Part shown: positions 585 through 59,408 of the stretch, piece by piece
How positions within the stretch are numbered: the stretch's first letter is position 1
How the letters are laid out: every line of letters starts with the position of its first letter
From: a virus
Direction: 5' to 3' (one strand)
Virus genome (UHGV): UHGV-1351772
DNA length: 64,000 nt
Made by a program: the position numbers and the translations under genes
Notes under the pieces: model-generated
Told to the model about the DNA's origin: nothing
Databases searched by the model: none
What the model saw: the letters and a program-made list of their open reading frames with translations, nothing else

Positions 585-614
585 TACCCACTACTCGTTT
601 CGGAGTAGTGGGTA
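585..614. terminator. bidirectional intrinsic terminator-like hairpin between convergent genes
   Basis: inverted repeat tacccactactcg / cggagtagtgggta with A-run upstream (569-583) and T-rich tract downstream. Confidence 0.5.
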
Positions 615-2056: not shown

Positions 2057-2082
2057 TACCTACCCCCTTTCGGAGGTAGGTA
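2057..2082 (-). terminator. intrinsic terminator-like hairpin downstream of the 2188..2835 gene
   Basis: tacctacc...ggtaggta stem with A-run on plus strand (T-run on minus strand) at 2044-2050. Confidence 0.45.
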
Positions 2083-3680: not shown

Positions 3681-3756
3681 TGGCGGGGGTGGGAAGTTTC
3701 GAACTCCCAACCTTCGGTTTTGGAGACCGCTGCACCACCAATTGTGCTACACCCCC
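3681..3756 (-). tRNA. tRNA-Trp: tRNA-Trp (anticodon CCA), 76 nt with encoded CCA end
   Basis: manual cloverleaf fold of the minus-strand sequence GGGGGTGTAGCAC...CACCCCCGCCA: 7-bp acceptor stem, D-stem GCAC/GTGC with G18G19, anticodon loop CU-CCA-AA, T-arm GGGAG-TTCGAAA-CTTCC, discriminator G. Confidence 0.85.
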
Positions 3757-4626: not shown

Positions 4627-5518
4627 ATTAAAATCTCCTGTCGTGGTCTGTGTCACACCAACAGGAAATCCTGTAAAAAAATAATTCAGCTGCGTACCGG
4701 CGTTTCTCAACGGGAGTACGCACCCCTCTCGTCTTTGCGAGCCGTCAAGCTAGAGGACATCACACTGCCAGCGCTACCTGGAGCAGGGTCATTCGACGCA
4801 ACGTCGTAATTCGCATTTTGGCCGCACCTCTGGGAGCGTATCCCACCGTCGGCTGCCCGCAGGTAAGTTCTACGGACCTTTCGCCAACGTCGCTCCCAGA
4901 GGCTGCCACGGTTCACTCGGATTTTCTCATGTGGTCCACGCGTCACTGATAGCGCGGGTTCCCCAACACTCGTAAGTCGGGGAACGGTACCGAGCACCTG
5001 AACTCTGGGGATTCCAAAAATCCCTCGGGGTAAGTACGATTCGCAAATCGATTTTCAAACCCCATAGTAAAACAAACTCCAGTGTTAGGCTGAACGTTTT
5101 GTTTTTCCCAGTACACGGCGAAATAAATTCCATGCACTCGAAAAAACAACCCCCAAACCAACACCCGGTCAGGGGGCTTCGAGCTCTGCTGAATCTTCGC
5201 AGACAGAAATCGTGTTTGAGCTGTGAGCAGTAAACTCCTGAACTCCGAAAAATCTTCGTGGTTGGATTTGTAAATCATCCCACGCAAATCCTCCGAACAT
5301 ACCATAGGGTTTTAACGTTCGAAAAAGGGGAATGGGTTTTACCCCCCTCGGTCAGGTGTTCAGGGTAGACCCCCTACCCGATCCCCCAGGTGGGGATTTT
5401 ACCCTGGTGAATTACCCCGGGTTCGATTTTCGGATTTTCTGGAAAATACCGCTCACCGATCCCTACCCCCTCAGGGGGGTCAGACCGAGATCAGATCTCA
5501 TAATAAGGATCGCGCGCG

Positions 5519-5614
5519 TTTTATATATATTTATATATAATATATATTATATATAATAATTATTATATTAATAAATATATTAATATATTTATTTAAATAA
5601 ATAATTAAATAATA
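5519..5614. repeat. 96-nt pure A/T low-complexity tract (possible DNA unwinding element)
   Basis: no G or C from 5519 to 5614; flanked on the left by cgcgcgcg (5511-5518). Confidence 0.8.
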
Positions 5615-5682
5615 CCTAAAGGTATTATTATTTTGATCCTAAAGGAATAATATATTTATAAATAAATATATTATACTATACG

Positions 5683-5700
5683 CGCGTGCGTACGCACGCG
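5683..5700. repeat. 18-bp perfect palindrome cgcgtgcgtacgcacgcg (alternating purine-pyrimidine)
   Basis: sequence equals its own reverse complement; sits at the right edge of the AT-rich tract. Confidence 0.85.
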
Positions 5701-5758
5701 TATAAGGAAGAGATCTTGAGATCAGATTTTTGAGAGAGTTAAAAATTTAAGATCGATC

Positions 5759-5779
5759 CGAGAGACTTAGTGTCTCTCG
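5759..5779. repeat. inverted repeat/hairpin cgagagac-ttagt-gtctctcg
   Basis: 8-bp perfect arms with 5-nt spacer. Confidence 0.7.
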
Positions 5780-5835
5780 AAGAGTATTAAAAAATTTAAA
5801 AGATCAAAAAACCAAAGCTAGAGAACTACTCAACC

Positions 5836-5862
5836 TGAATCTTCAGTGTGTGAAGATTCAGT
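5836..5862. repeat. inverted repeat/hairpin ctgaatcttca-gtgtg-tgaagattcag
   Basis: 11-bp perfect arms with 5-nt spacer. Confidence 0.75.
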
Positions 5863-6331
5863 AAGTTGATCAATCCAGCTGATCCGCTAGTACGCGAAGC
5901 GTGAATGTTTTTTTGATCGTCGCGGCGGCCGGTCCGCCGACCCGAGGGTGGGGTGGAACTGGTCGAGGGGAATGCCCCTCAGGCGCTCTCAATCGCGCTG
6001 TAACGAGTTAAACGGGGTTCTGGTACCCAAGTGTACCCCTTGAGGAGATTTTTGCGTCAAAATGCGTTCTAGAGCGTTTTACGATGGGGTGGGTTTTCGA
6101 CCCACTCAGGGATAGGGGTTGGCGTGACAGCTCGAACGACAAAATCGTGGTTTCATGGCGTTGAGTGAAAATAAATTCAAAACCCACAACCAAAAACACC
6201 CTCAAATTCTTCGTAGGAAGCTCTCTGACGAGATAAACGTGGGTAAGGGGTACGAACGTACCGCCTGGAAAGAAAAATGCGTTAGAATCGCTCTCAGCGC
6301 GTTTTTGATTTTTGGGCAAAAAAATAAAACG

Positions 6332-8945: not shown

Positions 8946-8975
8946 TAGCCAGTAACCCTAACGGGTTACTGGCTA
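8946..8975. terminator. bidirectional intrinsic terminator-like hairpin
   Basis: tagccagtaaccc-taac-gggttactggcta stem, A-run upstream and T-rich downstream. Confidence 0.5.
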
Positions 8976-11349: not shown

Positions 11350-11373
11350 CCTCCTACCCTTTCGGGTAGGAGG
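11350..11373 (-). promoter_or_regulatory. stable hairpin in the 46-nt spacer just upstream of the terminase RBS (RNA processing/stability or attenuator candidate)
   Basis: cctcctaccc-tttc-gggtaggagg 10-bp stem; no U-tract follows it on the minus-strand transcript. Confidence 0.35.
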
Positions 11374-18585: not shown

Positions 18586-19461
18586 ATGTCTATCAAAGAA
18601 CGCATGATTTTACCTGACCAGGGCCTCCACGTCGATGGCGGCCAGTACGATATGGTTAACCCCTTTTCGTCTGGTCAAAACGGTCCGGTCGGCCAGGTTG
18701 GTAAGTTCGTTACCAACGCCCACCGTCTGCGTCGTAACGTAATCGCACGTGTGATGGAATTCCCTCGTTGGGTTGATTACATGCCGAACCCACAACTGTG
18801 GCGTCAGGCAATCAAATCGTTCATCGAGGTTCACACCACGATTACCGGTCTGGACAAATCCCTGAGTGCTGAGTACGTACAGACCCAGCAGGGACGTAAC
18901 AACCGCGTTCAGTATGAAGCTGGTCTGGTAACGGAAGCACTGTCTTCGGTTACGCACACGACCCCGGATAAACTGGGTAAAGTGTATCAGAACATGCTCT
19001 GGGCGTGGTTGGTTTACGGTGTTTGTGATCCGCACACAGGCCACCCTGGTCTGGCGGCAATCAACCCGAACGTGCCAGATCACTTGCCGGATATGTACAG
19101 CATGACAGTGCTGTATTTCGAACCGGATGCGTATCAGCGTAAACCGCAGAACGCTTGGTGGCTGACGAACATGGCTCCTGAGTCTAACGGTCAGGATATC
19201 GGTGAACGTGACCCGAACACCGGACCTCAGACCAACGAACTGTCTATCACCTTCACCTCCCAGCAATGGACAGGTTGGGGTCCGATGCAGGCAGCTCAGA
19301 AAGAACTGGAGCGCATGAAGCTTTACGGTCTGCGTCCTTACGAACGCAAACTGTGGCTTACTCCGTCTCAACAGACCAACGGTATCAACCCAGACGTCGA
19401 TGCTACGGCTGGCGGTTATCGTTCTGTGTCCGACGAGCAGATGGCAAATCAGCTTCGTTAA
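18586..19461 (+). CDS. virion structural protein candidate (tail tube-like; 291 aa)
   Basis: 3-nt spacing after the preceding gene, same codon bias, followed by strong terminator. Confidence 0.6.
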   Translation: MSIKERMILPDQGLHVDGGQYDMVNPFSSGQNGPVGQVGKFVTNAHRLRRNVIARVMEFPRWVDYMPNPQLWRQAIKSFIEVHTTITGLDKSLSAEYVQTQQGRNNRVQYEAGLVTEALSSVTHTTPDKLGKVYQNMLWAWLVYGVCDPHTGHPGLAAINPNVPDHLPDMYSMTVLYFEPDAYQRKPQNAWWLTNMAPESNGQDIGERDPNTGPQTNELSITFTSQQWTGWGPMQAAQKELERMKLYGLRPYERKLWLTPSQQTNGINPDVDATAGGYRSVSDEQMANQLR

Positions 19462-19477
19462 GCAAAAAAAATAAGTT

Positions 19478-19504
19478 TACCTACCTCCGTCAAGGAGGTA
19501 GGTA
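19478..19504. terminator. bidirectional intrinsic terminator
   Basis: tacctacctcc-gtcaa-ggaggtaggta 11-bp perfect stem, A8 upstream, TTTTATTTTT downstream. Confidence 0.6.
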
Positions 19505-19508
19505 GCTT

Positions 19509-20087
19509 TTATTTTTCTTCTTGCGCCAGTTGTTTACGGGCAGAAGAACGAATAATTAAGTTTTTCATCTGCATTAACAGCAGGAACGTAGAGAGTAGAT
19601 CGAACGTGGTGGGTGGTGTGTTGGTGGTGTCGCTGGGATAAGCAACACGCCACAGTGTTAGTTCTGTGTCACCGTTTCCTTTTTCGTTACGTATAATTTC
19701 GTTGTTGTGCAAGCTAACCAATTCAGATTCCAACGCTTCTAATACATCTTCACCGAACTCAATCCGTAAGAGCTGTTTGAAACGGATAACGTAACCGGCG
19801 ACGACATTACCGACTGAACTGCTACGTATTTCGGTTAAGAAACGCTGGTAGCCGTTGATAGTGTGTGGGATCGTTTCAGCAGGCCATCCCGCGATGTGTG
19901 GAAACGCATCACCTAAAGTGGCTTGCATAGACAACGTAAAGATTTCACCGATCTGGTTAAGATGGCTAATGACTTCTGTACGGTTCATGACGTTAGGAAG
20001 CGCGACGGCCCGTTCTGTATTCGGCTTTTCTTGAGCCACGGGATAACCATCGAATAAGTTTTGCATTGTTTTATCTCCTGAAATCAA
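19509..20087 (-). CDS. hypothetical protein (192 aa)
   Basis: six-frame ORF. Confidence 0.55.
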   Translation of the reverse strand: MISGDKTMQNLFDGYPVAQEKPNTERAVALPNVMNRTEVISHLNQIGEIFTLSMQATLGDAFPHIAGWPAETIPHTINGYQRFLTEIRSSSVGNVVAGYVIRFKQLLRIEFGEDVLEALESELVSLHNNEIIRNEKGNGDTELTLWRVAYPSDTTNTPPTTFDLLSTFLLLMQMKNLIIRSSARKQLAQEEK

Positions 20088-21469: not shown

Positions 21470-21859
21470 TTAAGAGAATGTGAACTGACAGCGTGCCAAC
21501 AGAATACGATGGTTTTTCCAATCGTCAGGTTCTTGGATAATGTTTCGATAAAGGATATGGTCGGTGCTTACTACCCTTGCAAGCTCTTGCACCATATCCG
21601 GGAGCGTAGATGCTTTTAGCCGATGCGCTTCACGCCACTTAGGAGACGCCATACGGCACAGAAACGCATCTTTAGGTACGATGGTATTGCTTTCCTCTTT
21701 TAACGTCTCTAAATGCGCCTCAACGCGTTTTACGTGGAGCTCAAGTGCTTGTGGGTCTGTTACGAAAGTATAGAATCTGTCATCGCGACGTAAGCTACAC
21801 AGAATCCATAAGGTAAAGGGGTCACGACAAATATCAATGAATTGTTCTGACCAGACCAT
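21470..21859 (-). CDS. hypothetical protein; start uncertain (ORF extends to 21895)
   Basis: GGGAG at 9 nt spacing before ATG 21859. Confidence 0.45.
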   Translation of the reverse strand: MVWSEQFIDICRDPFTLWILCSLRRDDRFYTFVTDPQALELHVKRVEAHLETLKEESNTIVPKDAFLCRMASPKWREAHRLKASTLPDMVQELARVVSTDHILYRNIIQEPDDWKNHRILLARCQFTFS

Positions 21860-22259
21860 GAGCTGCATCTCCCTGAGTGTTACCTGCGAGTTCAATTGTT
21901 ACTATATCGATATTCGTCATGGCCGCACGCAAGACAATTGCTAAGACCTCATGGTCAGATTCATCCAGTTTGGTCCAAAGCTTTTTATCCGCTTTCACTT
22001 CTGGAAGTAGTTTTTCAATTGATAAATTAATGTATTCGGATAACGGATGTGCTTTTCTCCATTTTTCGTCTTTAAGTGTCTCAACCAACACTTTCATGTT
22101 GCCCGGGAATTCCAGGATTTCTTTTTCTAAATACGCAGAGCTTTGTTCGCGCAGGTATGCTTCATCGGAGAGGAGACGGTTTAAATCTTCAGCAACACCT
22201 GCTGCTCTGACAGCGACCATCATTACAACAAACGGGTCTTTAAATAATTCGTTTTTCAT
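21834..22259 (-). CDS. hypothetical protein (141 aa)
   Basis: six-frame ORF with TAAAGGAG-type RBS. Confidence 0.5.
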   Translation of the reverse strand: MKNELFKDPFVVMMVAVRAAGVAEDLNRLLSDEAYLREQSSAYLEKEILEFPGNMKVLVETLKDEKWRKAHPLSEYINLSIEKLLPEVKADKKLWTKLDESDHEVLAIVLRAAMTNIDIVTIELAGNTQGDAAHGLVRTIH

Positions 22260-36200: not shown

Positions 36201-39200
36201 GTGACTTTACCGAAGAAACTTTTAGGCTTCATTTCACCTAAAGCGGCTTCGTTGTTCGAGAAAGCACGTGAGTGGCTAAATGAGGTTCCAGAGGGCGCAG
36301 AGAAAACCCGTTTACAAAGCATGATTTCCCGTGTAACGGGAATGCCAGCGCGTTTGTGGAACAATGCAAAACGCGGGTTTGAGAAGCTCAAAGAGTTGGC
36401 TTCTGATAACCCTCTGACACGTTGGTGGCAGAACCGTAAGGAAGGGGGTTCTGGTGGTGGGTTTAGTGTGTTCTCATGGTCGAACGGCCGTAAAACTAAC
36501 CACATCTTAATCCGTATCTACAAACTCCTTAACCGGAGATTGCCAGGTGAACCAGAAGATGATACCTGGACAGAACAGATGGAGCGGAATACGGGAGCCA
36601 GTTCAGTTAAAGGATTATTCCAACGTGCTAAAGACATACGCGATGGGTTCCGTGAACATTTTCAGGGGTTCCGGGATTGGCGCGGTCGGATGCGTGACAG
36701 AATGTCCCGTTATCGCGGTGCGGTAGGCGATCGTCTTTCTCGTTGGGGCGGTACCGCACGTGGTTGGTTTGATCGTTTCCGTGGCCGTGCAAGCGATATG
36801 GTCGATACTTTCCGCGATCCGCGTTACGATATCGGCACACGTTATCGAATGGAGAGTCGTTTAGCAGGACGCGATGACGATGTTGCTGAGTTTTATCGTC
36901 AACACATCTACGCAAGAGGTAAGGTGTCTAAAACACGTATCATCGATGCGGCAAAAGAAGACTTAGACACCGTAACGGATAGCGCTGGACGTGTGATTAA
37001 TAAAGGGAAACAGAAAGCCCGTAGCGTTGGGTCAGCTTTACTGGAACGCCTGAACCGAATGGTTAATCTTCAGGAAATGTCATGGTTTAACACCATGCGT
37101 GATTCTGCGGAAAAAGCAGGTGCTTCGGATGGTTTGTTAAGAACTATGTTCAGTAAGTTCGGCCAACGCAATAAACCGCCTGCCAGTGATGAAAAACGTG
37201 ATTACTTCCAGTTCTTCCGACGCCGTCGTCGTTCTAAGGAAGAGGAAAAGGCTAAGAAAGAAGCCGAGAAGAAAGGTGGTAAGCGCGGGGTGATGGATTT
37301 CCTTAAAGGACTGCCGTTGGTAGGACCGATTGTGAGTATTTTAGGCACAGTAGGTTCAATCTTAGGTAAAGTCGCGAAATGGGGAATCTTTAAGCCGGTT
37401 GGGTTTGCAGGCAAAGCGTTGTGGAACGTTGGTAAGTTTGCTGTGACTCGTTTGGCTGTCCCTGCGGTGAGTGCTGTCGCGACGGCAGCATCTGCAGTGG
37501 TAACTGCGGTTGGCTGGCCGATTATCGGTTTGGTCGCTGCAGGCGCTGCGCTATCTTGGTTTGCATATAAAACTGCAACCCGTGTGAATGCTCAGTATTT
37601 GGATAACATGCGATTGGCACAGTACGGATTTAGAGATCACGATGAGTGGTCTTCCGACGATGGCGCAAAAGCACGTTATTTAGAAGACAACTTGAAACCG
37701 TACATCTCTTATACAGAGAATGGCCAAGCACAGTTGCGTGGTTTGTCCGGTGACGACGTGAAGAAACTGGCCGAAGGGTTTGGTACTAACGTAGAAGACA
37801 AAGGCGAAATGCTGGCGTTTAGTGCGTTTATGCTACAACGTTTTGTGCCGATCTATTTACGTTGGATTACGGCACTGAAATCCATGGATAATGATATCGC
37901 GTTAGCAGATGTCGGTAATCCTGCGAAAGTGTCGAAGGCAGACATGTTGAATATCTTCAACAAAATGAAGATGTCGAAAGATGCGCCTGCATTCCGTGCA
38001 TTAGAAGATCCCCGCAAGGTTAACCAAGGTTGGTTCTCTAAAGCGTGGGATTTCGTAACGTTTACCCCGGCCGAGTTTTTGTCAGGCGAAGAAGTCGTTG
38101 AAGCGCAAGAACGCGTGCTTCGTTCGATTAACATGCGTCGTGATGAAAAACGTAAGGATGTAAATGCTACAGGCGGTGTGGCCGAAGGACACAAAGTTGC
38201 TTCTGTGGCAGAATCGACCCAAGCGTTGGCTCAAGCGGATGCGGAACGCAACAAAGAAGTTGCGAAAGTCGAAGGTTGGGAAGACGGCACCGAACAAGTT
38301 CAGGTTCAAGTCGACTGGAGAAGCTTACCTAAAGAAACCGATCTCCGTGATTTGGAGTCCGTAAGGTTGAAAGCTTATGGTGCGGTGAGTATTACTCAAA
38401 CAACCCGTAACCTCTATACGCTCTTGGAACGTCAAGTGTTGCAAGACACCGATGTGAAAAGCTGTACGTATAAAGGCGACTGGAAACGTGCGATTGCGGT
38501 GATTGCGCCTGACGCCATTGGTGGGCCAAAAGAAGATCGGTACAAGAACTGGTTCTATAACCGCTTCTTACCTGTCTTCATGACGTACGTGGTTGGGGTG
38601 AAACGTTATGTCCCTGCTGCCGATCCGATGGACCTACGCGTTACGGGTGGGTTCTTGTATGAAATCGCACTGATGATGCGTGGTGCATACAACCTGAAAG
38701 GGGGTATTCGTCAGTCAGTGTGGGAGGTACCGTTTAACCCGTTAGGGGGAGACGCTAACACCGACGCCGGTTCAGTTGCAACGGAGTTAGAGAACCTGAA
38801 AGAACTGTCTAAGGAAGCTGATTTGGCAGTACGTAAAACGCTGCGTGCTACGCCTTCTGCGGGTTTCCGTGTGAACTGGCAGCGAAAAGATCGCGCGACT
38901 CAGATGTTCTTGACCGACGATGAGAAGGAGCAACCGTCTCGACCACAGATGAACACCTCCTCCTCTTATCGTGACCTATTGCAACCAGCGGCAAACGACG
39001 GTGGGAATTACGGCACACCAAACGATTTGGCCGGTGCTTACGGTCAGATGGGAGCTAAGAATTACGCTGCATTTACTACCGGTAACTTCGGCGTGAAACT
39101 TGGCGATATGCAAGACGGTGACTATAAAACGTTAGCGGCTAAGTATCCAATTTCAACGTTGGGTGACGGATTGAAGCCTAACTTGAATGCGGTTGCAGCA

Positions 39201-40337
39201 CTGATTACAGACGTAGCGAAGATGATGGGTGTTCCTCCAGCGTTAGCACTGGGAATGGCACAAGCAGAATCTGGGCTTAGATACGGTATCAAAGCTAAAG
39301 GAAGTTCTGCGGCTGGCTTGTTCCAGTTCATCAACGATACCTGGGGTGCGCAGATGAAAGCTTATGCGAGACGTTATGGTATCCCGCAAACCAACCAGTA
39401 TGACCCGTGGGCGAATGCTCTGCTTGGCGTCCGTCATATTCGTGATAATATCGAGAAAGCCAGAAAGGATTTAGGTGGTATCGATCCTCCAGGTGCAGCT
39501 GTTTACCTCTACCACTTCTTAGGACAAGGTGGCGGTAAGAAATTCCTGCAAGAATGGAAGCGTGATCCGAACGGGCCATCGTCGCGTGGTGCGTCGGCCG
39601 ATCAAATCGCGGCAAACAGCACAATTTTCTACAAGAATGGAAAATTGCGTAGTTTGGATGAAGTGCTCAACATCATGGGTGGTAAGATTGGTGCTGTAGG
39701 AACAAACGCGATCGCGGCTAACCAGGCATCGCTGAAAGACTTGACGACAGGCGTAACACCAATGCCGTCTTCCCCGGCTATCGCTGCAGGCGCTGCTAAC
39801 GATCCGTCTATCACAGGCCCGGCAGATAACCTGCCAGCCGCGAACGAGGCGAATCGCGACTCCGCTTTAGCAGACAAAGGCGCGATGGGTGCTGAAGATA
39901 TTAAAGCTGCAACTGGTGGTGGTCCGGCTGTGCCGAGTCCTGGCGGCGATGTCACGCCGAGCGATGCGTCAGTTGTTGTAGAGACGGTGGGTCAAAATGC
40001 ACGTGCTGATGGCCTGGCCGAAGAAGAGGTTGCTAAAGTAAAAGAAGGTGCTAGACAGCAGATGGAGAAATCGGCCCGTCCTGCACCAACGGTAACTTCC
40101 GATGCTCAGAGCGGTTCTACAGTGAACAGTGGTGATCCGATCAGTGTACAACAGCTGGCGGTTGCAAAAGAGTCTGCAGGCTATCTGAAAGAGATTGTAA
40201 CAATTCTTCGCCAGCGGCCACAGGCTATGCAAAACGGTCCGGCTAACCCGGCGTCAACCGCTCCGGGTTCGGCGTCACGTAACGTGTCAATAACTCAACC
40301 CGCGCCGCAACTCGACGTTAGTCGTAAATCAGCGTAA
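33261..40337 (+). CDS. giant virion-associated protein (2358 aa) with C-terminal soluble lytic transglycosylase domain; tape-measure/ejection-protein-like
   Basis: SLT motif GMAQAESGLRYGIKAKGSSAAGLFQFINDTWG near residue 2000; long hydrophobic block near residues 1340-1430; poly-basic tracts (RKRRRKRKR). Confidence 0.8.
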   Translation: MDDWDDFDEPPRQQDQSRNPVMDTFRAARKSALSTIWPENKRDQVILKGMPKPAAEAYEGYQNVKAAGQDILAHTKDEIEKTSRVVKMQARQLGPTLKRYLPESVTRKIDKWARNDQIDYGNYDPKQAMMDRELDSVFSGAPQTADQQREAQEGMVEDRLRDTIKDMKSDALFQTVIGIAKDVNLTTSLSRGVLLNVQRKQLELQYRTLFALQDIAKLKQDEFARNTPALEAIVKNTALPDYAKEEFSEIRWANVKRKAAEWMNPLHYADNFIGQIRENAKKKISNIFSDGRGILEQVLGMAQEDDFDMSDSSSLSPDRRNTNSRNKAAGFAGGWLAKRLLQPQIERLQNWTRGELEKNPEVMKRLQLAKYGFGNLSSISNSAIAGETSGPLADLFRLMHDLGLVNPLRRETLALDDRSAESLSAAAKFDRKAYLSITEVIPTLLSEINKSIRRGYGEHHDQVYDLTTRGMVDRKVIGNRVRKAVANDDQRKRLQTYINDTVDFIDKDKTLDRKTRQALADYIESRASEGKAFDVGSLLKDPMHMYRYMNANAVEAIQGVLEARSAELVGGHHELSNAISNKIAAIQSTIRARQDTVDAASVIYGENALRDSGIFKYDAKKDIFEVDKDINDPYTLFNDLSMGKTRSGRSLTREQEIQRKLQNGSALGDYLRRMGAGAEPSFEDKELSNVRGGGKGGRGRGLSARQLAAVLYGEKSTNFVELLSSRPDTNAGLEQQFDRLIDAVRKQPESSTVQDILKHVKNMDEEGILLASLGGSRDDGDESESSSDSGRKRRRKRKRIVLGETGLLRRWAGVLWDTGSGVGRFGKNLFLRGKDRLQALGGFIRGKFSGGSSEGPGVFSRLKGLVTGTLSTGWNSAVAFGKGVLGVRDIYDERGNVVLQGSRLEAGEYYQADPKTEKLIQLKTLDDIKLGRDIVDEAGNLILAAADLAAAGKLRFYKGGKVQALFQYISGKAGTAVNKAVTLPKKLLGFISPKAASLFEKAREWLNEVPEGAEKTRLQSMISRVTGMPARLWNNAKRGFEKLKELASDNPLTRWWQNRKEGGSGGGFSVFSWSNGRKTNHILIRIYKLLNRRLPGEPEDDTWTEQMERNTGASSVKGLFQRAKDIRDGFREHFQGFRDWRGRMRDRMSRYRGAVGDRLSRWGGTARGWFDRFRGRASDMVDTFRDPRYDIGTRYRMESRLAGRDDDVAEFYRQHIYARGKVSKTRIIDAAKEDLDTVTDSAGRVINKGKQKARSVGSALLERLNRMVNLQEMSWFNTMRDSAEKAGASDGLLRTMFSKFGQRNKPPASDEKRDYFQFFRRRRRSKEEEKAKKEAEKKGGKRGVMDFLKGLPLVGPIVSILGTVGSILGKVAKWGIFKPVGFAGKALWNVGKFAVTRLAVPAVSAVATAASAVVTAVGWPIIGLVAAGAALSWFAYKTATRVNAQYLDNMRLAQYGFRDHDEWSSDDGAKARYLEDNLKPYISYTENGQAQLRGLSGDDVKKLAEGFGTNVEDKGEMLAFSAFMLQRFVPIYLRWITALKSMDNDIALADVGNPAKVSKADMLNIFNKMKMSKDAPAFRALEDPRKVNQGWFSKAWDFVTFTPAEFLSGEEVVEAQERVLRSINMRRDEKRKDVNATGGVAEGHKVASVAESTQALAQADAERNKEVAKVEGWEDGTEQVQVQVDWRSLPKETDLRDLESVRLKAYGAVSITQTTRNLYTLLERQVLQDTDVKSCTYKGDWKRAIAVIAPDAIGGPKEDRYKNWFYNRFLPVFMTYVVGVKRYVPAADPMDLRVTGGFLYEIALMMRGAYNLKGGIRQSVWEVPFNPLGGDANTDAGSVATELENLKELSKEADLAVRKTLRATPSAGFRVNWQRKDRATQMFLTDDEKEQPSRPQMNTSSSYRDLLQPAANDGGNYGTPNDLAGAYGQMGAKNYAAFTTGNFGVKLGDMQDGDYKTLAAKYPISTLGDGLKPNLNAVAALITDVAKMMGVPPALALGMAQAESGLRYGIKAKGSSAAGLFQFINDTWGAQMKAYARRYGIPQTNQYDPWANALLGVRHIRDNIEKARKDLGGIDPPGAAVYLYHFLGQGGGKKFLQEWKRDPNGPSSRGASADQIAANSTIFYKNGKLRSLDEVLNIMGGKIGAVGTNAIAANQASLKDLTTGVTPMPSSPAIAAGAANDPSITGPADNLPAANEANRDSALADKGAMGAEDIKAATGGGPAVPSPGGDVTPSDASVVVETVGQNARADGLAEEEVAKVKEGARQQMEKSARPAPTVTSDAQSGSTVNSGDPISVQQLAVAKESAGYLKEIVTILRQRPQAMQNGPANPASTAPGSASRNVSITQPAPQLDVSRKSA

Positions 40338-40384
40338 TAACAACAGGGGGGTAGGAAACTACCCCCGTTTTTTAGAGGTATAAC

Positions 40385-42556
40385 GTGGACGCTAGATCAG
40401 CTAACGACTCAAGCTGGGTCAGAAATCTATTTAAGGGAGAGTTGGAAGGCCGAGATGAACGTTTTCTGGCCTTGCGACGCTACTCTAACGGTATGATGTC
40501 TTTTGAAGATACGACCATGGGCGGTAGCAAAGCGATTAATAGCCCTCCACAGTTTACGTGGTTTGCAGACCCCCCATCAACAGGGGCATTTGCACGACCC
40601 GGTAATCGTGAAGCGGAGAAAAAGGCGTTGGCTAACGGTATGCCAACCTCTTCTTATCGCTTAGGGACGTATTATTACGAAAGCATTAACCAAAATTCGT
40701 TTTACGTACATTGTCGCTTCGGCAAGCCGAAATATCTGGGAATGGCCGCATTCTTTGCGAATATGTACGATTCCAACTTAGCGTATTTAGCGCGTACGGG
40801 CGATTATCCGGGAATGATCCGCACGATAGCAAGTTATATCGGTGCGGCAGCGATATGGGCCACTGTAGGCACTGTCGCTTTTGCGGTAATTTTAATTACT
40901 CCTCGCATTCTCGCAGCAGCGTTGAATAAACAAACGTCGCGTTACTATTACGTTAAACCGACGATGCATCTGTATTTGCGTGCTGTACAGAACATCTTGA
41001 ATACGCAGCTTGTTTATCGTCGTTTGGTTCCCACGGGTATCTTAGGTACCTTCCAGGTTAGTCAAGACGGCGATGGAAAAGGGAACAAAAAAGCACGTGA
41101 TGATGCTTTTGAAGCGTTGCCGGAGGTTTGGAAAAAAGACGGTGAATTCGATGTCTTTAAGATGATCAACCGTTATCAAACCCTGGCGAACTATCAGAAT
41201 CAACGTTTAAAAGAACTTCGTAAGCAGTCCTCAAGTGACGATGATTTCGCCGAGCGGATACGAAATTTCTATTTGGACAGCACATATGGTGCGGCTTCGT
41301 ATTCTGACGATGTGAGAAATTACGAAGTTTCTTTGCAAGACATGGAGCGGTTAGCTGCATCCGAGCGCGGTGGCTATGCGGCGAAAGACGCGTCGGGCAA
41401 AGATATTAATAGTGTTGATGAACTGGAAAAAGGGGTTCTCGATGCGTTTAGTTCCGGGCTACAAACTGGGGGAACGGCAAGCGACCTAGAGGCGCAGGCG
41501 GCAGAAATCCAAAACAAAATGAACGAGGATTTGGAAAATGCCGATGCGAGTAACCTCACCGAGGGACAACAGATTACGATACAGTCCTGGGCGGATAAAG
41601 GTAAAGAATCGACTATGGAGACGTTCTTCGGCGACTTTGTTAAAGTGGTTGGCGAACAGATTGAAGGGATTAAAGCACAGGCGCTGTCCGAAATCTACAA
41701 CGGTTCTCAGTGGGTAACCTGGAGAATCGATGGGAAGGACACCGTCTCTCGTTCGTTCTCTAACTCTACAAAAGAGCCGGAGATCTCTAGCACAGTTAAC
41801 TCAATGACAGCGAAAGCTCGTCAACTTGAAGTAAACTTGTCCGGCGGGCAAACCGGCTTCAACGCGGTCGATTCATTAATTACGGGCTTTAAGTCCGTAA
41901 TGCGTGGGTTAGCAGATACGTTGCATCTAACGGGGATTATGTCGTTATATAATTCATCCGTCATTGACTTCCCAGAGGTGTGGGACAGTTCAGATGCCTC
42001 GGGCGATGATATTAACTTGACAATACCTTTACGTGCATGGTCTGGAAGTGACCTGGATATCTTCCAGGAAATTCTAGTGCCACTATCCTTTTGGATCGCC
42101 GCAGTATGTCCAATTGCGACAGGTAAACAATCGTTCACTCATCCGTTTTATCTGGAGTGTTACTCGCAAGGTCGATTCTCGTTCCGTAATGCTATCGTAA
42201 CATCTTTGTCTTTACAATTCGGTGTGGGTGGTTTAGGTTGGCGACCAGGTGATTCTGTTCCACTGTCTTGTGATATCAATGTTACCATCCGTGATTTGTC
42301 GCGTGTGATGTATATGCCCATCGTTACAGACACAGGTGTTTGGGACGACGATAATAAATTCAGTGAGTTTATGGCGTGTTTGGGTGCAGCGACGTTGTAC
42401 GAACGTACGAACGGTATAGAGCGTGCCAAGATCCAAGGAAGCATTTGGGCGCAGAACTGGGCATCTGCGTGGTCACAGGGCAGTTTTATTAACTCTGCGT
42501 TTGATGTGCTTCCAGCACGCCAGATCGCGAACATCTTCTTGCCGCAAGCACGTTAA
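40385..42556 (+). CDS. hypothetical protein (723 aa) with one transmembrane-like segment, probably virion/ejection-associated
   Basis: follows the giant SLT protein on the same strand; hydrophobic segment IGAAAIWATVGTVAFAVILI. Confidence 0.6.
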   Translation: MDARSANDSSWVRNLFKGELEGRDERFLALRRYSNGMMSFEDTTMGGSKAINSPPQFTWFADPPSTGAFARPGNREAEKKALANGMPTSSYRLGTYYYESINQNSFYVHCRFGKPKYLGMAAFFANMYDSNLAYLARTGDYPGMIRTIASYIGAAAIWATVGTVAFAVILITPRILAAALNKQTSRYYYVKPTMHLYLRAVQNILNTQLVYRRLVPTGILGTFQVSQDGDGKGNKKARDDAFEALPEVWKKDGEFDVFKMINRYQTLANYQNQRLKELRKQSSSDDDFAERIRNFYLDSTYGAASYSDDVRNYEVSLQDMERLAASERGGYAAKDASGKDINSVDELEKGVLDAFSSGLQTGGTASDLEAQAAEIQNKMNEDLENADASNLTEGQQITIQSWADKGKESTMETFFGDFVKVVGEQIEGIKAQALSEIYNGSQWVTWRIDGKDTVSRSFSNSTKEPEISSTVNSMTAKARQLEVNLSGGQTGFNAVDSLITGFKSVMRGLADTLHLTGIMSLYNSSVIDFPEVWDSSDASGDDINLTIPLRAWSGSDLDIFQEILVPLSFWIAAVCPIATGKQSFTHPFYLECYSQGRFSFRNAIVTSLSLQFGVGGLGWRPGDSVPLSCDINVTIRDLSRVMYMPIVTDTGVWDDDNKFSEFMACLGAATLYERTNGIERAKIQGSIWAQNWASAWSQGSFINSAFDVLPARQIANIFLPQAR

Positions 42557-42572: not shown

Positions 42573-43136
42573 ATGGCTAATACGCTATTAGGTAAATCAG
42601 GAAAACAACTGGTTTATGAGTTATTAGTAAAAAAGAATCCTGGTTTGGTAGAGAAAGGTATTACAATCGATAAGTTGAATTTTGGTACACCGTCACATAT
42701 TCCTGCGGTAGAAACACCAGAAACCCAATTTACACGATTAAATACCCAACTTAGCGTCCAGGGAATTATTGAACAGAAAACGTTTGGTAAAATCGACGTT
42801 ATTTATCGTCGATTGGATTTAGAGCACCTCTTAGGTGACTTTGTAGTTTCTGTTGCGGGTGTTAATGCGGCTACGGTATCTGAGGTACTACAGCTTTTCC
42901 GCAATAAGTACAATTTACAGATTACCGACGATGAAGTTGAGAACCCAACAGCTGCACCAGACAGCAAAGATAAAACCATCATTATCATGAATGGGACATC
43001 TTTGGCATGGACAGGGCGGCTGGAAGTGTACTTAACAGAGCTGCCGTCCGACGGTAAGGATATTTCGAAGTTGATTAAAGTCACTGAACTTGACGGTTTG
43101 ACGTATATCTCTTCTGGGATTGTTCCAGGCGCTTAA
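42573..43136 (+). CDS. hypothetical protein (187 aa)
   Basis: six-frame ORF with GAGG RBS; followed by terminator. Confidence 0.55.
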   Translation: MANTLLGKSGKQLVYELLVKKNPGLVEKGITIDKLNFGTPSHIPAVETPETQFTRLNTQLSVQGIIEQKTFGKIDVIYRRLDLEHLLGDFVVSVAGVNAATVSEVLQLFRNKYNLQITDDEVENPTAAPDSKDKTIIIMNGTSLAWTGRLEVYLTELPSDGKDISKLIKVTELDGLTYISSGIVPGA

Positions 43137-43159
43137 AAAAGAAAAAAAATAAGAAAGTC

Positions 43160-43185
43160 TACCTACCTCCGAAAGGAGGTAGGTA
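43160..43185. terminator. bidirectional intrinsic terminator
   Basis: tacctacctcc-gaaa-ggaggtaggta; the 11-bp stem is identical to the one at 19478; A-run upstream, T-rich downstream. Confidence 0.6.
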
Positions 43186-43192
43186 CTTTTAT

Positions 43193-44023
43193 TTATTTCG
43201 CCAGATCTGCTTCTTTTACAAAGATACCGTCGGCGTTCAGATAACCTTTACGGTCTTTGATTTCGTGCCAGGCCAAAGAGAAACAATGGCGAATGTTAAG
43301 ACGATAATAGAGAGCGAGTCGCGCAAGACGATGTAAAGCCCAACCTAACGTAACAGTACCCAGTTCAGTACGTAAGAACGCAGTAGCGAAGATTTCGGTA
43401 GCCTCTAAATACAACTGGTGTGGATATTTGGTATCGTTTAAACGTTCTTCAACGTCAGCGACATCATCTACCTGCAATTGTAAACCGCGTTCGATGACTT
43501 CAGCGGTTGTCATTCCGCCAGTCACTCTGTCCTTATCCAGTTCCAGGATGTTTACCAGAACCACCAACGCATCGCCGATGCCGTCCATGATCAGTTCAGG
43601 TTTGTTTTTGCTGATACCTGTTGCAATCTCACCAAATTCTTCATAGAACTTTGTGATTTGAGTTTCCAGTTTACCGTTGTCGAGAATACCACGTTCTTTA
43701 GACCAACCTTTAACACGTTCTACACAGTTTTCAATAGAGTAGACCGGAACAGATTCTGTATGCATTACCGTGCCGTTGTAAACAGCATCGGTAAGCTTAA
43801 TAGGCGCTACAATTGTTTCGATGTCCAGTTCTTGATTACCGGTGTGACGTTTACCTTCTACACGAATACGGTTGGTACCAGGGTTTACACCAATTGTGTA
43901 AATAGCATCGAACTGTACTGCATTCTCATTCAGAGCGCGCAGTTGTGCGTTAACTTCTTCCAGGTGCTGACCAGGATTAACCACGATGTTGTAAATAGTG
44001 TTGATGTCAAAACGTTCGCCCAT
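43193..44023 (-). CDS. MazG-like nucleoside triphosphate pyrophosphohydrolase domain protein with about 100-aa N-terminal extension
   Basis: FYEEFGEIATG ... DGIGDALVVLVNILELD ... LAWHEIKDRKG pattern typical of the all-alpha MazG family. Confidence 0.6.
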   Translation of the reverse strand: MGERFDINTIYNIVVNPGQHLEEVNAQLRALNENAVQFDAIYTIGVNPGTNRIRVEGKRHTGNQELDIETIVAPIKLTDAVYNGTVMHTESVPVYSIENCVERVKGWSKERGILDNGKLETQITKFYEEFGEIATGISKNKPELIMDGIGDALVVLVNILELDKDRVTGGMTTAEVIERGLQLQVDDVADVEERLNDTKYPHQLYLEATEIFATAFLRTELGTVTLGWALHRLARLALYYRLNIRHCFSLAWHEIKDRKGYLNADGIFVKEADLAK

Positions 44024-48373: not shown

Positions 48374-48436
48374 GATAATTCTCCTTTAGGGTAAAAAATG
48401 AAAATACCCTACTCCTAGTCAGGAGTAGGGTAGATG

Positions 48437-56697: not shown

Positions 56698-57486
56698 ATG
56701 AATGTAAATCCACTTGCAGCGTTATCTAGCTTCGCCGCTAAAGCGTCTGCAATCTTACCGAAAGGGTTTAGTGGCCCTCAACAAGAGATTGCATTAACCA
56801 CTTATGACGAGATGTCGGACGTTTCCAAGTGGATGCAACAAGAAAAATTCCTACACTTTGCGGGAATGTTGGTTATCGTTCCACCTGGGTTTAATACCTA
56901 CGTGATGGATCACTTGAACCGCTTAGAATCTGTATGGAGTTCACTACAAAACATCTATACGGGTATTCTGCTACCGGTCGATAAACAACTTTCGGCCCTT
57001 ACACATGATGTGGGGGTACTGTCATTACCGATTGGTTTCCGTTACAAAAACGTTAATTTACCGTTACGTAATGTTAACCCGAAAGACCTGGTTAACTTAT
57101 TAGCGAAATCGTACACTAATAACGTTATTGACCAGCGACCAATTGAGAAGACGTACCACAGCGCGTCTGAGATTGACGTTGCGTTCAATCGTGCTAAAGC
57201 CCTGAACGTTGAAATTACGAAACGTTTACGGACGAATATCGACAAGTCAATCGAGTCCATTCGCACTACGTCAGAAATCTTGTCCGAACAAAACATTCAT
57301 CCGAATGTAGCAAAAGAACTGACGATGATGTTAGATTTTGCATCCGATTGGGTGGAGCTGTTTGGTCTGTTCATGAAACAGGTTAACGAGTTAATCGAAT
57401 GCCTGAACGTTACTGCCGAACGCTTAAAAGCGCTTAAGGCAAACAAAAATAAAAAAGTAAAGTTACCCCTAGACCGTGTGGTCTAG
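56698..57486 (+). CDS. hypothetical protein (262 aa) on plus strand
   Basis: ORF with GAGG RBS; stop lies inside a 13-bp hairpin terminator. Confidence 0.5.
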   Translation: MNVNPLAALSSFAAKASAILPKGFSGPQQEIALTTYDEMSDVSKWMQQEKFLHFAGMLVIVPPGFNTYVMDHLNRLESVWSSLQNIYTGILLPVDKQLSALTHDVGVLSLPIGFRYKNVNLPLRNVNPKDLVNLLAKSYTNNVIDQRPIEKTYHSASEIDVAFNRAKALNVEITKRLRTNIDKSIESIRTTSEILSEQNIHPNVAKELTMMLDFASDWVELFGLFMKQVNELIECLNVTAERLKALKANKNKKVKLPLDRVV

Positions 57487-57492
57487 GGGTAA
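57463..57492. terminator. bidirectional intrinsic terminator
   Basis: 13-bp perfect stem ttacccctagacc-gtgt-ggtctaggggtaa followed by T-rich tract. Confidence 0.5.
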
Positions 57493-58397: not shown

Positions 58398-58422
58398 TTT
58401 AATACTCCTAAACACTTTTAGC

Positions 58423-59349: not shown

Positions 59350-59408
59350 GGTTTATTCTCCTAAAATGGTTAAAAATAAAGTAACCCTAGCCGAAGCTAG
59401 GGTGTCTA

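What the first reader, a model, noticed from the sequence alone, without database searches (positions are those of the whole stretch)
19478..19504. Family of related GC-rich hairpins reused at convergent gene ends
The stem TACCTACCTCC/GGAGGTAGGTA is identical at 19478-19504 and 43160-43185. Close variants (TACCTACC, CCTCCTACCC, CCCACTACTC) occur at 2057, 11350 and 585. Reuse of one stem sequence suggests a phage-specific terminator or RNA-processing signal, or a mobile mini-element.
Basis: seen in the sequence. Interest (0 to 1): 0.5.

Follow-up and report, generated by a model that had tools for sequence, protein, structure and literature searches.

The report
Reused terminator hairpins in jumbo phage
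The repeated GC-rich hairpins are real and are almost certainly the ordinary transcription stop signals of a giant SPN3US-like phage, built to the same plan already mapped in phiKZ-type phages; the one unusual point is that one stem sequence has been copied onto several separate terminators in this lineage.

Summary
A perfect 11-bp stem, TACCTACCTCC/GGAGGTAGGTA, lies at 19478-19504 and 43160-43185. A third copy at 2057-2082 has one mismatch. The window comes from a jumbo phage of the SPN3US/phiEaH2 group (Chimalliviridae), 99.9% identical to metagenome contig CYGL01000001.1.

- **What they are:** the hairpins lie just after stop codons and are flanked by an A-tract and a TTTTATTT tract. They look like intrinsic terminators: two-way at convergent gene ends, one-way at 2057.
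- **Conservation:** relatives keep a hairpin at the same gene junctions, with the stems changed by compensatory substitutions.
- **Known plan:** C-rich 5' arm, short loop, G-rich 3' arm and a TTAT tail match the terminator motif mapped by ONT-cappable-seq in phiKZ and 201phi2-1. The literal phiKZ sequence motif does not match.
- **Stem reuse:** sharing exceeds chance even within this restricted stem vocabulary. In this clade four junctions carry the same stem, while SPN3US has four different stems at those junctions. A second lineage shares a different stem between two of the junctions. This points to copying between terminators.
- **Not supported:** I found no sign of a mobile mini-element.
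- **Missing:** there are no transcript data for this phage.

Verdict: a new member of a known kind, of modest interest.

The parts
19478..19504 (.). Terminator hairpin A: TACCTACCTCC gtcaa GGAGGTAGGTA. It starts 16 nt after the tail-tube gene stop (19459-19461) and ends 4 nt before the stop of the convergent gene 19509-20087(-).
   Evidence: Folding gives -25.4 kcal/mol (+) and -25.8 kcal/mol (-), z = -7.8 and -6.0. The upstream gene matches the Pfam tail tube family PF23806. A hairpin is present at this junction in every relative with enough sequence (21 of 23 loci), giving 17 distinct sequences; the inner 8 pairs are always paired, and seven of them show 2-4 pair types.
19464..19475 (.). A-tract AAAAAAAATAAG upstream of hairpin A. 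Read on the minus strand it is the U-tract (CTTATTTTTTTT).
   Evidence: Sequence. The flanks pair with each other in the predicted fold.
19507..19516 (.). T-tract TTTTATTTTT downstream of hairpin A. It is the U-tract for plus-strand transcripts and contains TTAT.
   Evidence: TTAT is enriched in these tails (27 of 42 against 15.9 in shuffles).
43160..43185 (.). Terminator hairpin B: TACCTACCTCC gaaa GGAGGTAGGTA. It lies between the convergent genes 42573-43136(+) and 43193-44023(-).
   Evidence: Folding gives -24.0 and -23.1 kcal/mol. A hairpin is present at this junction in all 21 relatives, with varied stems. The loop is flipped (GAAA versus TTTC) in close relatives.
43137..43159 (.). A-rich tract upstream of hairpin B (AAAAGAAAAAAAATAAGAAAGTC).
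43186..43198 (.). T-tract CTTTTATTTATTT downstream of hairpin B. It overlaps the stop codon of the convergent gene.
2057..2082 (-). Terminator hairpin C, one-way. On the minus strand it reads TACCTACCTCC gaaa GGGGGTAGGTA with one G.U pair. It lies between co-directional minus-strand genes 2188-2835 and 1522-1962.
   Evidence: Folding gives -30.5 kcal/mol on the minus strand and -20.5 kcal/mol on the plus strand. The same site is perfectly paired in relative contig 078609.
2044..2056 (-). U-tract of terminator C (minus strand TATTCTTTTTTTA). There is no T-tract on the plus strand.
585..614 (.). Related two-way terminator TACCCACTACTC gtttcg GAGTAGTGGGTA at a convergent junction (17-568 + and 623-1003 -).
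   Evidence: Relatives keep a hairpin here, and the loop is flipped (CGAAAC) in L077.
48405..48432 (-). Related terminator TACCCTACTCCT agtc AGGAGTAGGGTA, with a T-tract on the minus strand only.
57463..57492 (.). Related two-way terminator TTACCCCTAGACC gtgt GGTCTAGGGGTAA at the convergent junction of 56698-57486(+) and 57498-58553(-).
   Evidence: SPN3US has TACCCACTCCC gtaag at the matching junction.
59384..59403 (-). Related terminator ACCCTAGC cgaa GCTAGGGT, with a T-tract on the minus strand.
8946..8975 (.). Two-way terminator TAGCCAGTAACCC taac GGGTTACTGGCTA at a convergent junction. It has the same architecture but a less similar stem.
11350..11373 (.). CCTCCTACCC tttc GGGTAGGAGG, the same stem vocabulary. 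It sits 12 nt upstream of the terminase large-subunit start on the minus strand and has no sense-strand T-tract, so it is probably not a sense terminator.
   Evidence: SPN3US has CCTCCACCCC ttcg GGGGTGGAGG at the same place.

Best explanation
The hairpins are intrinsic (factor-independent) transcription terminators of a Chimalliviridae jumbo phage of the SPN3US/phiEaH2 group.

**How it works (inferred).** The RNA folds into an 11-bp GC-rich stem just before a U-rich TTTTATTT tract, and this releases the polymerase. In this phage family the polymerases are presumably the phage's own multisubunit enzymes. At convergent gene ends the unit is symmetric: an A-tract, the palindromic stem, then a T-tract. 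One element therefore stops transcription from both directions. At 2057 only the minus strand has the U-tract, so that copy works one way. The hairpin probably also protects the mRNA 3' end from exonucleases.

**The shared plan.** All of these terminators follow a family-wide design: a C/T/A-only, G-free 5' arm, a 4-5 nt loop, a G-rich 3' arm and a TTAT-containing tail. This is the design already mapped in phiKZ and 201phi2-1.

**Why the stems are identical (inferred).** The identity at several sites comes from sequence copying between pre-existing terminators in the ancestor of this clade. The likely mechanism is gene conversion across the roughly 50-bp A-tract/stem/T-tract unit. The likely donor is the terminator next to the DUF4376 gene, called locus D here, which lies outside the window. 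Purifying selection on pairing then kept the copies alike.

**Shown versus inferred.** Shown: the structure, position, conservation, covariation, enrichment and lineage-specific sharing. Inferred: actual termination, the polymerase involved and the conversion mechanism.
For: **1. Anatomy.** The stems are perfect and predicted to fold at -23 to -30 kcal/mol, z = -4.4 to -7.8 on the strands expected to be read. T-tracts follow on the strands that should be read. The hairpins lie 16-24 nt after stop codons at sites A and B.

**2. The phage.** The window is collinear with SPN3US, including the tail sheath, tail tube, terminase and RNA polymerase beta-subunit genes. Seoulvirus belongs to Chimalliviridae.

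**3. Positional conservation with covariation.**
- Every relative with enough sequence downstream of the tail-tube gene has a hairpin with an A-tract and a T-tract (21 of 23 loci). Across 17 distinct sequences the inner 8 pairs are 100% paired, and seven of them show 2-4 pair types.
- All 21 relatives have a hairpin at junction B.
- Nearly every strong hairpin in the window has a counterpart at the same SPN3US junction.

**4. RNA-level signature.** In all 4 one-way terminators with a single transition mismatch, the mismatch is G.U on the strand with the T-tract; none is A.C. The 2057 variant is one of these.

**5. Known design.**
- The 61 intrinsic phiKZ terminators share BCCYCCCCHWWDGGGRRGGBYTTATKYYGT (PMC10914365).
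- 201phi2-1 has 132 mapped termination sites, 15 of them bidirectional, and eight terminators were validated in vivo (PMC11512511).
- Here, among intergenic hairpins in the window plus SPN3US, 37 have a C-rich 5' arm and 14 a G-rich one. TTAT occurs in 27 of 42 tails, against 15.9 in shuffles.

**6. Copying.**
- In the window clade the stems at loci A, B, C and D are all TACCTACCTCC.
- In SPN3US the same four junctions carry TACCTCTCTCC, GCGAGTACCCC, GTCCTCACTC and CCTACCTCCC.
- Contig 3300011741_000001 has a different stem, ACCCAACTCC, with identical flanks at both A and B.
- SPN3US has its own reused stems: CCCTCTTACC three times, ACCCACTCC three times and ACCCTACTCC twice.
- Stem sharing exceeds a Markov null model: P about 0.001 in the window, and 0 of 5000 simulations in SPN3US.
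Against: - No transcript 3' ends are available for this phage or, in the literature I could search, for any SPN3US-group phage. Termination is therefore inferred.
- The literal phiKZ motif gives 0 matches in the window with up to 3 mismatches. The resemblance is in design, not in sequence.
- The 11350 hairpin uses the same vocabulary but has no sense-strand T-tract, so not every member is a terminator.
- Locus A in SPN3US differs from the window stem by only two paired positions. That site could have converged stepwise rather than by copying.
- The identical stem also occurs in distant Vibrio jumbo phages at yet another junction. This fits a preferred stem vocabulary as well as copying.
- The number of independent lineages that show within-genome sharing is small: two clear cases and one near case.
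Confidence: 0.75

Rival explanations
1. The identical stems are binding sites for a lineage-specific factor. This could be a phage termination or antitermination protein, an RNA-stability protein, or an mRNA-export protein of the phage nucleus. On this view the sequence matters, not only the pairing, and it co-evolves with the factor.
For: - The stems are conserved far better than the loops or the coding flanks across the window clade, where flanks are 77-97% identical.
- Different lineages share different stems between loci A and B.
- The exact hairpin is nearly confined to Chimalliviridae.
- The 201phi2-1 authors suspect antitermination in that phage.
Against: - Only 3-4 of about 10 C-first hairpins in the window, and 4 sites in the whole 228-kb genome, carry the stem. 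The rest differ.
- Orthologous stems drift freely by compensatory change, which is the pattern expected when pairing alone is selected.
- No candidate protein was identified.
Confidence: 0.08
2. The hairpins act mainly after transcription. They are 3' stabilisers or RNA-processing sites rather than places where the polymerase stops.
For: - Stable GNRA or UUCG-type tetraloop hairpins are common here.
- Hairpins of the same vocabulary occur without U-tracts just upstream of genes, at 11350 and 40347.
- Long-read 3'-end mapping in relatives does not by itself separate termination from processing.
Against: - The copies in question have TTAT-containing U-tracts exactly on the transcribed strands, and the tails are enriched for TTAT.
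- At convergent junctions a terminator is needed to stop transcription running into the opposing gene.
- Eight 201phi2-1 terminators stopped transcription in reporter assays.
- This role is not exclusive of termination.
Confidence: 0.1
3. No copying took place. The stems coincide by chance because all terminators in these phages are drawn from a narrow, selected vocabulary: G-free 5' arms rich in TACC, ACCC and CTCC.
For: - The vocabulary is real: C-first arms outnumber G-first arms 37 to 14.
- ACCCACTCC recurs at different junctions in many genomes.
- Vibrio phages VP4B and pTD1 and Photobacterium phage PDCC-1 carry the very same 11-bp stem at an unrelated junction.
Against: - A Markov model trained on the stems themselves, which is conservative, still gives P about 0.001 for the window and 0 of 5000 simulations for SPN3US for shared 10-mers.
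- The flanks are shared as well as the stems. In contig 3300011741, 14 + 11 nt of flank are identical at loci A and B.
- Four loci are identical in one clade and all four differ in SPN3US.
Confidence: 0.1
4. The hairpin is a small mobile element (MITE/REP-like) or a PeSL-like cassette that inserts at new places or mediates gene shuffling.
For: - A unit of about 50 bp with inverted-repeat structure is present at several loci.
- PeSL terminator/promoter cassettes in T4-like phages set a precedent (PMC2839356, PMC4122927).
Against: - Every relative examined already has a hairpin at junctions A and B. No empty site was seen.
- Synteny is conserved on both sides of the hairpins.
- Boundaries of mosaic divergence between close relatives fall at gene ends or inside genes, not at the hairpins.
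- There are only four copies per genome.
- No promoter can be attached to the unit at convergent junctions.
- Target-site duplications were not looked for.
Confidence: 0.03

Closest known systems
Conserved intrinsic terminator motif of phiKZ and 201phi2-1 (Chimalliviridae), mapped by ONT-cappable-seq (PMC10914365; PMC11512511)
   Same: - Same virus family.
- Same design: a C/Y-rich 5' arm, a loop of about 4 nt, a G/R-rich 3' arm and a TTAT-containing T-rich tail.
- Many copies in intergenic regions, with bidirectional versions at convergent genes.
- Some elements lie just upstream of genes.
   Different: - The sequence differs: the stems here are (T)ACCYACYTCC-type with A and T interspersed, not CCYCCCC.
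- The literal phiKZ motif has no match in the window.
- Exact identity of long stems between a few loci, and its lineage-specific pattern, was not mentioned in the passages I retrieved from those papers.
- No experimental mapping exists for this phage group.
Canonical bacterial Rho-independent and bidirectional terminators
   Same: A GC-rich hairpin followed by a U-tract. A symmetric A-tract/hairpin/T-tract arrangement between convergent genes serves both strands.
   Different: Here the terminators are presumably read by phage-encoded multisubunit RNA polymerases (inference from the family). The stems have a strongly biased composition, with a G-free 5' arm, and a TTAT interruption in the tail.
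PeSL (promoter-early stem-loop) cassettes of T4-like phages (PMC2839356; PMC4122927)
   Same: Near-identical terminator stem-loops are repeated at several intergenic sites of a large lytic phage genome, and short repeats can recombine with one another.
   Different: - PeSLs couple the stem-loop to an early promoter and flank variable genes, where they mediate indels and gene swaps.
- Here there is no attached promoter, the junctions are conserved, and mosaic boundaries do not coincide with the hairpins.
DNA uptake sequences (DUS/USS) as inverted pairs forming terminators in Neisseria and Haemophilus (from my own knowledge, not checked here)
   Same: One specific sequence is reused as the stem of many terminators.
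   Different: - In those bacteria the reuse is driven by a DNA-level function, uptake for transformation, and there are hundreds of copies.
- No DNA-level function is indicated here, and there are only four copies.
Stable tetraloop (UUCG/GNRA) intercistronic hairpins of phage T4 (from my own knowledge)
   Same: Frequent TTCG, CGAA and GAAA loops closing GC-rich stems between genes of a large lytic phage.
   Different: The T4 hairpins are not known to share long identical stems or the C-first/G-second arm rule.

Membership tests
Intrinsic (Rho-independent) terminator | Stable GC-rich RNA hairpin | tested here: met
   11-bp perfect stems. Folding gives -23 to -30 kcal/mol with flanks, and z = -4.4 to -7.8 on the strands expected to be read.
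Intrinsic (Rho-independent) terminator | U-rich tract immediately 3' of the hairpin on the transcribed strand | tested here: met
   Sites A and B have T-tracts on both strands. Site C has one on the minus (sense) strand only.
Intrinsic (Rho-independent) terminator | Position downstream of a stop codon, at the end of a transcription unit | tested here: met
   Site A is 16 nt after the tail-tube stop. Site B is 24 nt after its stop. Both are at convergent junctions.
Intrinsic (Rho-independent) terminator | Pairing maintained in evolution (covariation) | tested here: met
   At locus A the 8 inner pairs are 100% paired in 17 distinct sequences, and seven of them show 2-4 pair types. In one-way terminators the wobble pair is on the sense strand in 4 of 4 cases.
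Intrinsic (Rho-independent) terminator | Transcript 3' ends and polymerase release at the site | not testable with these tools
   I found no transcriptome data for this phage group.
phiKZ / 201phi2-1 conserved terminator motif | C/Y-rich 5' arm, short loop, G/R-rich 3' arm | tested here: met
   Among intergenic hairpins in the window plus SPN3US, 37 are C-first and 14 are G-first. Loops are mostly 4 nt. The motif is described.
phiKZ / 201phi2-1 conserved terminator motif | TTAT in the tail after the stem | tested here: met
   27 of 42 tails contain TTAT, against 15.9 in shuffles. All five functional tails of sites A, B and C contain it.
phiKZ / 201phi2-1 conserved terminator motif | Match to the published sequence consensus BCCYCCCCHWWDGGGRRGGBYTTAT | tested here: not met
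   0 matches in the window with up to 3 mismatches. I therefore file this as the same kind of element, not the same sequence family.
phiKZ / 201phi2-1 conserved terminator motif | Host phage is a Chimalliviridae member with its own multisubunit RNA polymerases | tested here: met
   The window is collinear with SPN3US, including several RNA polymerase beta-subunit genes. Seoulvirus lies in Chimalliviridae.
PeSL-type mobile regulatory cassette | Stem-loop coupled to an early promoter | tested here: not met
   At convergent junctions A and B genes end on both sides, which leaves no room or role for an outward promoter. The promoter scan found none adjacent.
PeSL-type mobile regulatory cassette | Copies bound insertions, deletions or replacements between close relatives | tested here: not met
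   Synteny is conserved at the hairpins. Divergence boundaries lie at 42.5 kb (a gene end) and 43.3-43.6 kb (inside a gene), not at the hairpins.
MITE/REP-like mini-element | Presence/absence polymorphism at otherwise conserved sites; many dispersed copies | tested here: not met
   A hairpin is present at junctions A and B in all relatives with enough sequence. There are four copies in the 228-kb source-like genome. Target-site duplications were not looked for.

The most novel reading that the evidence does not exclude
The exact stem sequence, and not only its pairing, is functionally read in this lineage. For example, a phage-encoded termination/antitermination, RNA-stability or nuclear mRNA-export factor might recognise it and mark a chosen subset of transcripts (tail sheath/tube, tail-fibre module and others). 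A weaker version is that ongoing gene conversion keeps dispersed terminators identical, so that they act as recombination sites in jumbo-phage genomes.
Probability: 0.1. Interest if true: 0.6.

Novelty: new member of a known kind. Interest (0 to 1): 0.3.

Why it matters
- **Annotation.** The result gives the SPN3US/phiEaH2 group a working terminator model: a C-first hairpin plus a TTTTATTT tail, two-way at convergent junctions. This helps define transcription units in phages that have no transcriptome data.
- **Reach of the known design.** It extends the phiKZ-type terminator design to the enterobacterial and Vibrio branches of Chimalliviridae.
- **A testable side-point.** The lineage-specific sharing of whole terminator units suggests that short regulatory elements in jumbo phages are homogenised by copying. 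This bears on how their genomes recombine.
- **Practical use.** These compact, strong, two-way terminators could serve as parts for synthetic biology in Enterobacteria.
- **Limits.** None of this changes current understanding of termination.

Tried and rejected
- **MAFFT plus RNAalifold on the locus-A orthologues.** This gave no consensus structure because stems of different length were misaligned. I replaced it with a loop-anchored pair count.
- **Rfam at gathering threshold.** It found only the tRNA-Trp, so the hairpins belong to no described RNA family.
- **Literal phiKZ terminator consensus.** No match.
- **Literature on SPN3US-group terminators or transcriptomes.** Nothing relevant was found. 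One SPN3US 'terminator' hit referred to stop codons, and the 'terminator' hits in an AR9 paper referred to an exonuclease and to AR9's own terminators.
- **PeSL-like recombination role.** Sliding identity against four close relatives shows mosaic boundaries that do not coincide with the hairpins.
- **Inversion between the palindromic copies A and B.** Contig coordinates show the same order and orientation in all relatives.
- **Locus D via the DUF4376 protein.** Only 2 loci came back. I repeated the search with the radical-SAM neighbour.
- **SD/anti-SD reading of GGAGG/CCTCC.** At convergent junctions there is no downstream gene. Where a gene follows (11350), its own SD lies after the hairpin. 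I did not pursue this.
- **Two calls failed on input limits.**

Full report

Yes. The 11-mer TACCTACCTCC and its reverse complement form perfect inverted repeats at 19478-19504 (loop GTCAA) and 43160-43185 (loop GAAA).

A third copy at 2057-2082 has one mismatch, TACCTACCCCC/GGAGGTAGGTA. The hairpins at 11350-11373 (CCTCCTACCC/GGGTAGGAGG) and 585-614 (TACCCACTACTC/GAGTAGTGGGTA) are also present as described.

The pattern is more than chance:
- The 11-mer with up to 1 mismatch gives 6 hits against 0.66 expected, and none of 100 shuffles reaches 6.
- CCTACC/GGTAGG has 11 of its 24 occurrences in the 6.3% of the window that is intergenic, against 1.5 expected.

First, only 19478, 43160 and 585 are at convergent gene ends; 2057 and 11350 lie between co-directional minus-strand genes. 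Second, more hairpins of the same style exist at 48405, 57463, 59384 and 8946.

**2. What genome is this?**

The window is a jumbo phage of the SPN3US/phiEaH2/Asesino group.
- It is 75-79% identical in nucleotide sequence to those phages.
- It is fully collinear with SPN3US, including the tail sheath, tail tube (PF23806), terminase and several RNA polymerase beta-subunit genes.
- Seoulvirus belongs to Chimalliviridae, the phiKZ-like nucleus-forming phages.
- A 228,572-bp metagenome contig, CYGL01000001.1, is 99.9% identical to the window. It carries three exact copies of the hairpin, and the near-copy at 2057 would make four.

**3. Anatomy**

Site A (19478) starts 16 nt after the stop codon of the tail-tube gene and ends 4 nt before the stop of the convergent gene. 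Site B (43160) lies between the convergent genes 42573-43136(+) and 43193-44023(-).

Both sites have the same layout: A-tract (AAAAAAAATAAG) / stem / loop / stem / T-tract (CTTTTATTT). Each strand therefore encodes a hairpin followed by a U-tract.

Predicted folds are -23 to -26 kcal/mol on both strands. No shuffle of 200 folds as well.

Site C (2057) has a T-tract only on the minus strand, which is the sense strand there. Its single imperfect pair is G.U on that strand and C.A on the other, giving -30.5 against -20.5 kcal/mol.

The same holds more widely. In the window plus SPN3US, all 4 one-way terminators with one transition mismatch have G.U on the T-tract strand. The sample is small, but it is the pattern expected if the RNA, and not the DNA, is what folds.

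**4. Conservation**

Downstream of the tail-tube gene, every relative with enough sequence (21 of the 23 loci fetched) has a hairpin flanked by an A-tract and a T-tract. The stems differ:
- TACCTACCTCC in the window clade
- TACCTCTCTCC in SPN3US
- GCCTCACTCCT in phiEaH2/Asesino
- ACCCAACTCC, (N)ACCCACTCC, ACCCCACTC, AGACCTACCACCC, CCGACCCC and CAGGGGCC in others

In a loop-anchored comparison of 17 distinct sequences, the inner eight pairs are paired in every sequence, and seven of them show 2-4 pair types. Junction B likewise has a hairpin in all 21 relatives.

Almost every strong window hairpin has a counterpart at the same SPN3US junction. These are old, position-conserved structural elements, not recent insertions.

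Among close relatives the loops change freely and sometimes flip to their reverse complement while the flanks stay the same. Examples are GAAA/TTTC at site B and GTTTCG/CGAAAC at 585. Such small inversions are expected between perfect inverted arms.

**5. The shared design and what is already known**

Among intergenic hairpins in the window plus SPN3US, 37 have a C-rich, nearly G-free 5' arm and 14 the reverse. Loops are mostly 4 nt, with TTCG, CGAA and GAAA common. The tails contain TTAT in 27 of 42 cases, against 15.9 after shuffling.

This is the plan reported from experimental 3'-end mapping in related phages:
- In phiKZ, 61 intrinsic terminators share 5'-BCCYCCCCHWWDGGGRRGGBYTTATKYYGT-3' (PMC10914365).
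- In 201phi2-1, 132 termination sites were mapped, 15 of them bidirectional. The main motif resembles that of phiKZ, and eight terminators were validated in vivo (PMC11512511).

The literal phiKZ consensus does not match the window. I therefore treat this as the same kind of element with a different sequence, not as the same sequence family.

I found no description of terminators for the SPN3US group.

**6. Why are the stems identical?**

The restricted stem vocabulary raises the chance of coincidence but does not explain the sharing. Under a Markov model trained on the stems themselves, three pairs sharing a 10-mer in the window has P about 0.001. In SPN3US the observed sharing was never reached in 5000 simulations. 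SPN3US has its own reused stems: CCCTCTTACC three times, ACCCACTCC three times and ACCCTACTCC twice.

The comparison across genomes is the more telling evidence.

| Junction | Window clade | SPN3US |
|---|---|---|
| A (after tail tube) | TACCTACCTCC | TACCTCTCTCC |
| B (after DUF7941 gene) | TACCTACCTCC | GCGAGTACCCC |
| C (2057) | TACCTACCTCC (one mismatch in the window) | GTCCTCACTC |
| D (next to the DUF4376/radical-SAM genes, outside the window) | TACCTACCTCC | CCTACCTCCC |

Locus D keeps a CCTAC-type stem in SPN3US and in phiEaH2 (GACCTACTACC). It is therefore the likely original carrier of the stem.

An independent lineage, contig 3300011741_000001, shares a different stem, ACCCAACTCC, between junctions A and B. 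Its flanks are also identical, 14 nt on one side and 11 nt on the other. A third lineage has near-identical stems at A and B.

Divergence alone cannot produce lineage-specific identity between non-orthologous sites. The simplest reading is occasional copying of the whole unit of about 50 bp between existing terminators (gene conversion), followed by purifying selection on pairing.

A sequence-specific factor is a possible alternative. It is disfavoured because only a minority of terminators in a genome share a stem, and because orthologous stems drift by compensatory change.

**7. Rejected readings**

- **Mobile mini-element or PeSL-like cassette.** There are no empty sites among the relatives examined at junctions A and B, and synteny is conserved on both sides. 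No promoter can be attached at a convergent junction. Mosaic boundaries between close relatives do not fall at the hairpins. Target-site duplications were not looked for.
- **Known RNA family.** Rfam finds nothing here.

**8. Specificity**

- The exact hairpin is found in 13 stretches from 8 viral contigs, all of them jumbo phages. They include the Vibrio phages VP4B and pTD1 and Photobacterium phage PDCC-1, where it sits downstream of the DNA polymerase gene.
- It is found in 23 metagenome stretches, mostly from contigs of 200-229 kb of the same phage group.
- It is found only once in 596 Gb of cellular genomes.

**9. Verdict**

It still lacks direct transcript evidence. The element is a new member of a known kind, the Chimalliviridae-type intrinsic terminator. 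The modest extra point is lineage-specific homogenisation of terminator units. Interest is about 0.3.

Noticed in passing
window 5330-6000: A non-coding stretch of about 650 bp. Its core (5518-5680) is essentially pure A+T and full of TATATA-type palindromes. CGCGCG motifs bracket the core (5511-5518; CGCGTGC gtac GCACGCG at 5683-5700), and about a dozen GATC sites lie around it. G- or C-rich blocks sit on both sides. The stretch corresponds to the start/end of the SPN3US record, and relatives L075/L076 have CGCGCGC/GCGCGCG hairpins at the matching place. It looks like an origin-type or terminus-type region.
   Followed up: partly
window 40347-40366: A G-first hairpin, GGGGGTAG gaaa CTACCCCC, lies between the 2358-aa tail-fibre gene and the 723-aa gene. 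All 21 relatives keep it, down to 38% protein identity, with compensatory changes and a GNRA loop. It sits about 40-60 nt upstream of the downstream start codon and often has no T-tract. It is probably not a plain terminator and may be a processing, stability or translation element.
   Followed up: partly
window 11350-11373: The hairpin CCTCCTACCC/GGGTAGGAGG ends 12 nt before the terminase large-subunit start on the minus strand. It has no sense-strand T-tract. SPN3US has CCTCCACCCC ttcg GGGGTGGAGG at the same place. It may be a conserved 5'-UTR hairpin.
   Followed up: partly
window 43160-43185 and 585-614, compared with L023/L024/L119 and L077: Between close relatives the hairpin loops are exact reverse complements (GAAA versus TTTC; GTTTCG versus CGAAAC) while the flanks are unchanged. 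These are small hairpin-mediated inversions.
   Followed up: yes
window 21830-22217: A patch of about 390 bp fails to align with any relative, although those relatives are 80-97% identical on both sides. It is a hypervariable or replaced segment near the 22366 hairpin.
   Followed up: no
window 37885-42556 compared with L048/L050: The tail-fibre gene and the 723-aa gene are mosaic. They are about 95% identical at the nucleotide level (99% at the protein level for the 723-aa gene) to contig 113438 but only about 40-90% identical to contig 3300029126, which is 97-100% identical elsewhere. The boundary falls at the end of the 723-aa gene, around 42.5 kb. This is the pattern expected for exchange of a host-range module.
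   Followed up: partly
window 3681-3756 (-): A tRNA-Trp (CCA anticodon) next to the HslV-like peptidase gene, as in SPN3US.
   Followed up: no
SPN3US (L016-L020) 67345, 94154, 180981; 92501, 137590, 186744: SPN3US reuses its own terminator stems at unrelated junctions: CCCTCTTACC three times and ACCCACTCC three times. Stem reuse is therefore a general trait of this phage group.
   Followed up: partly
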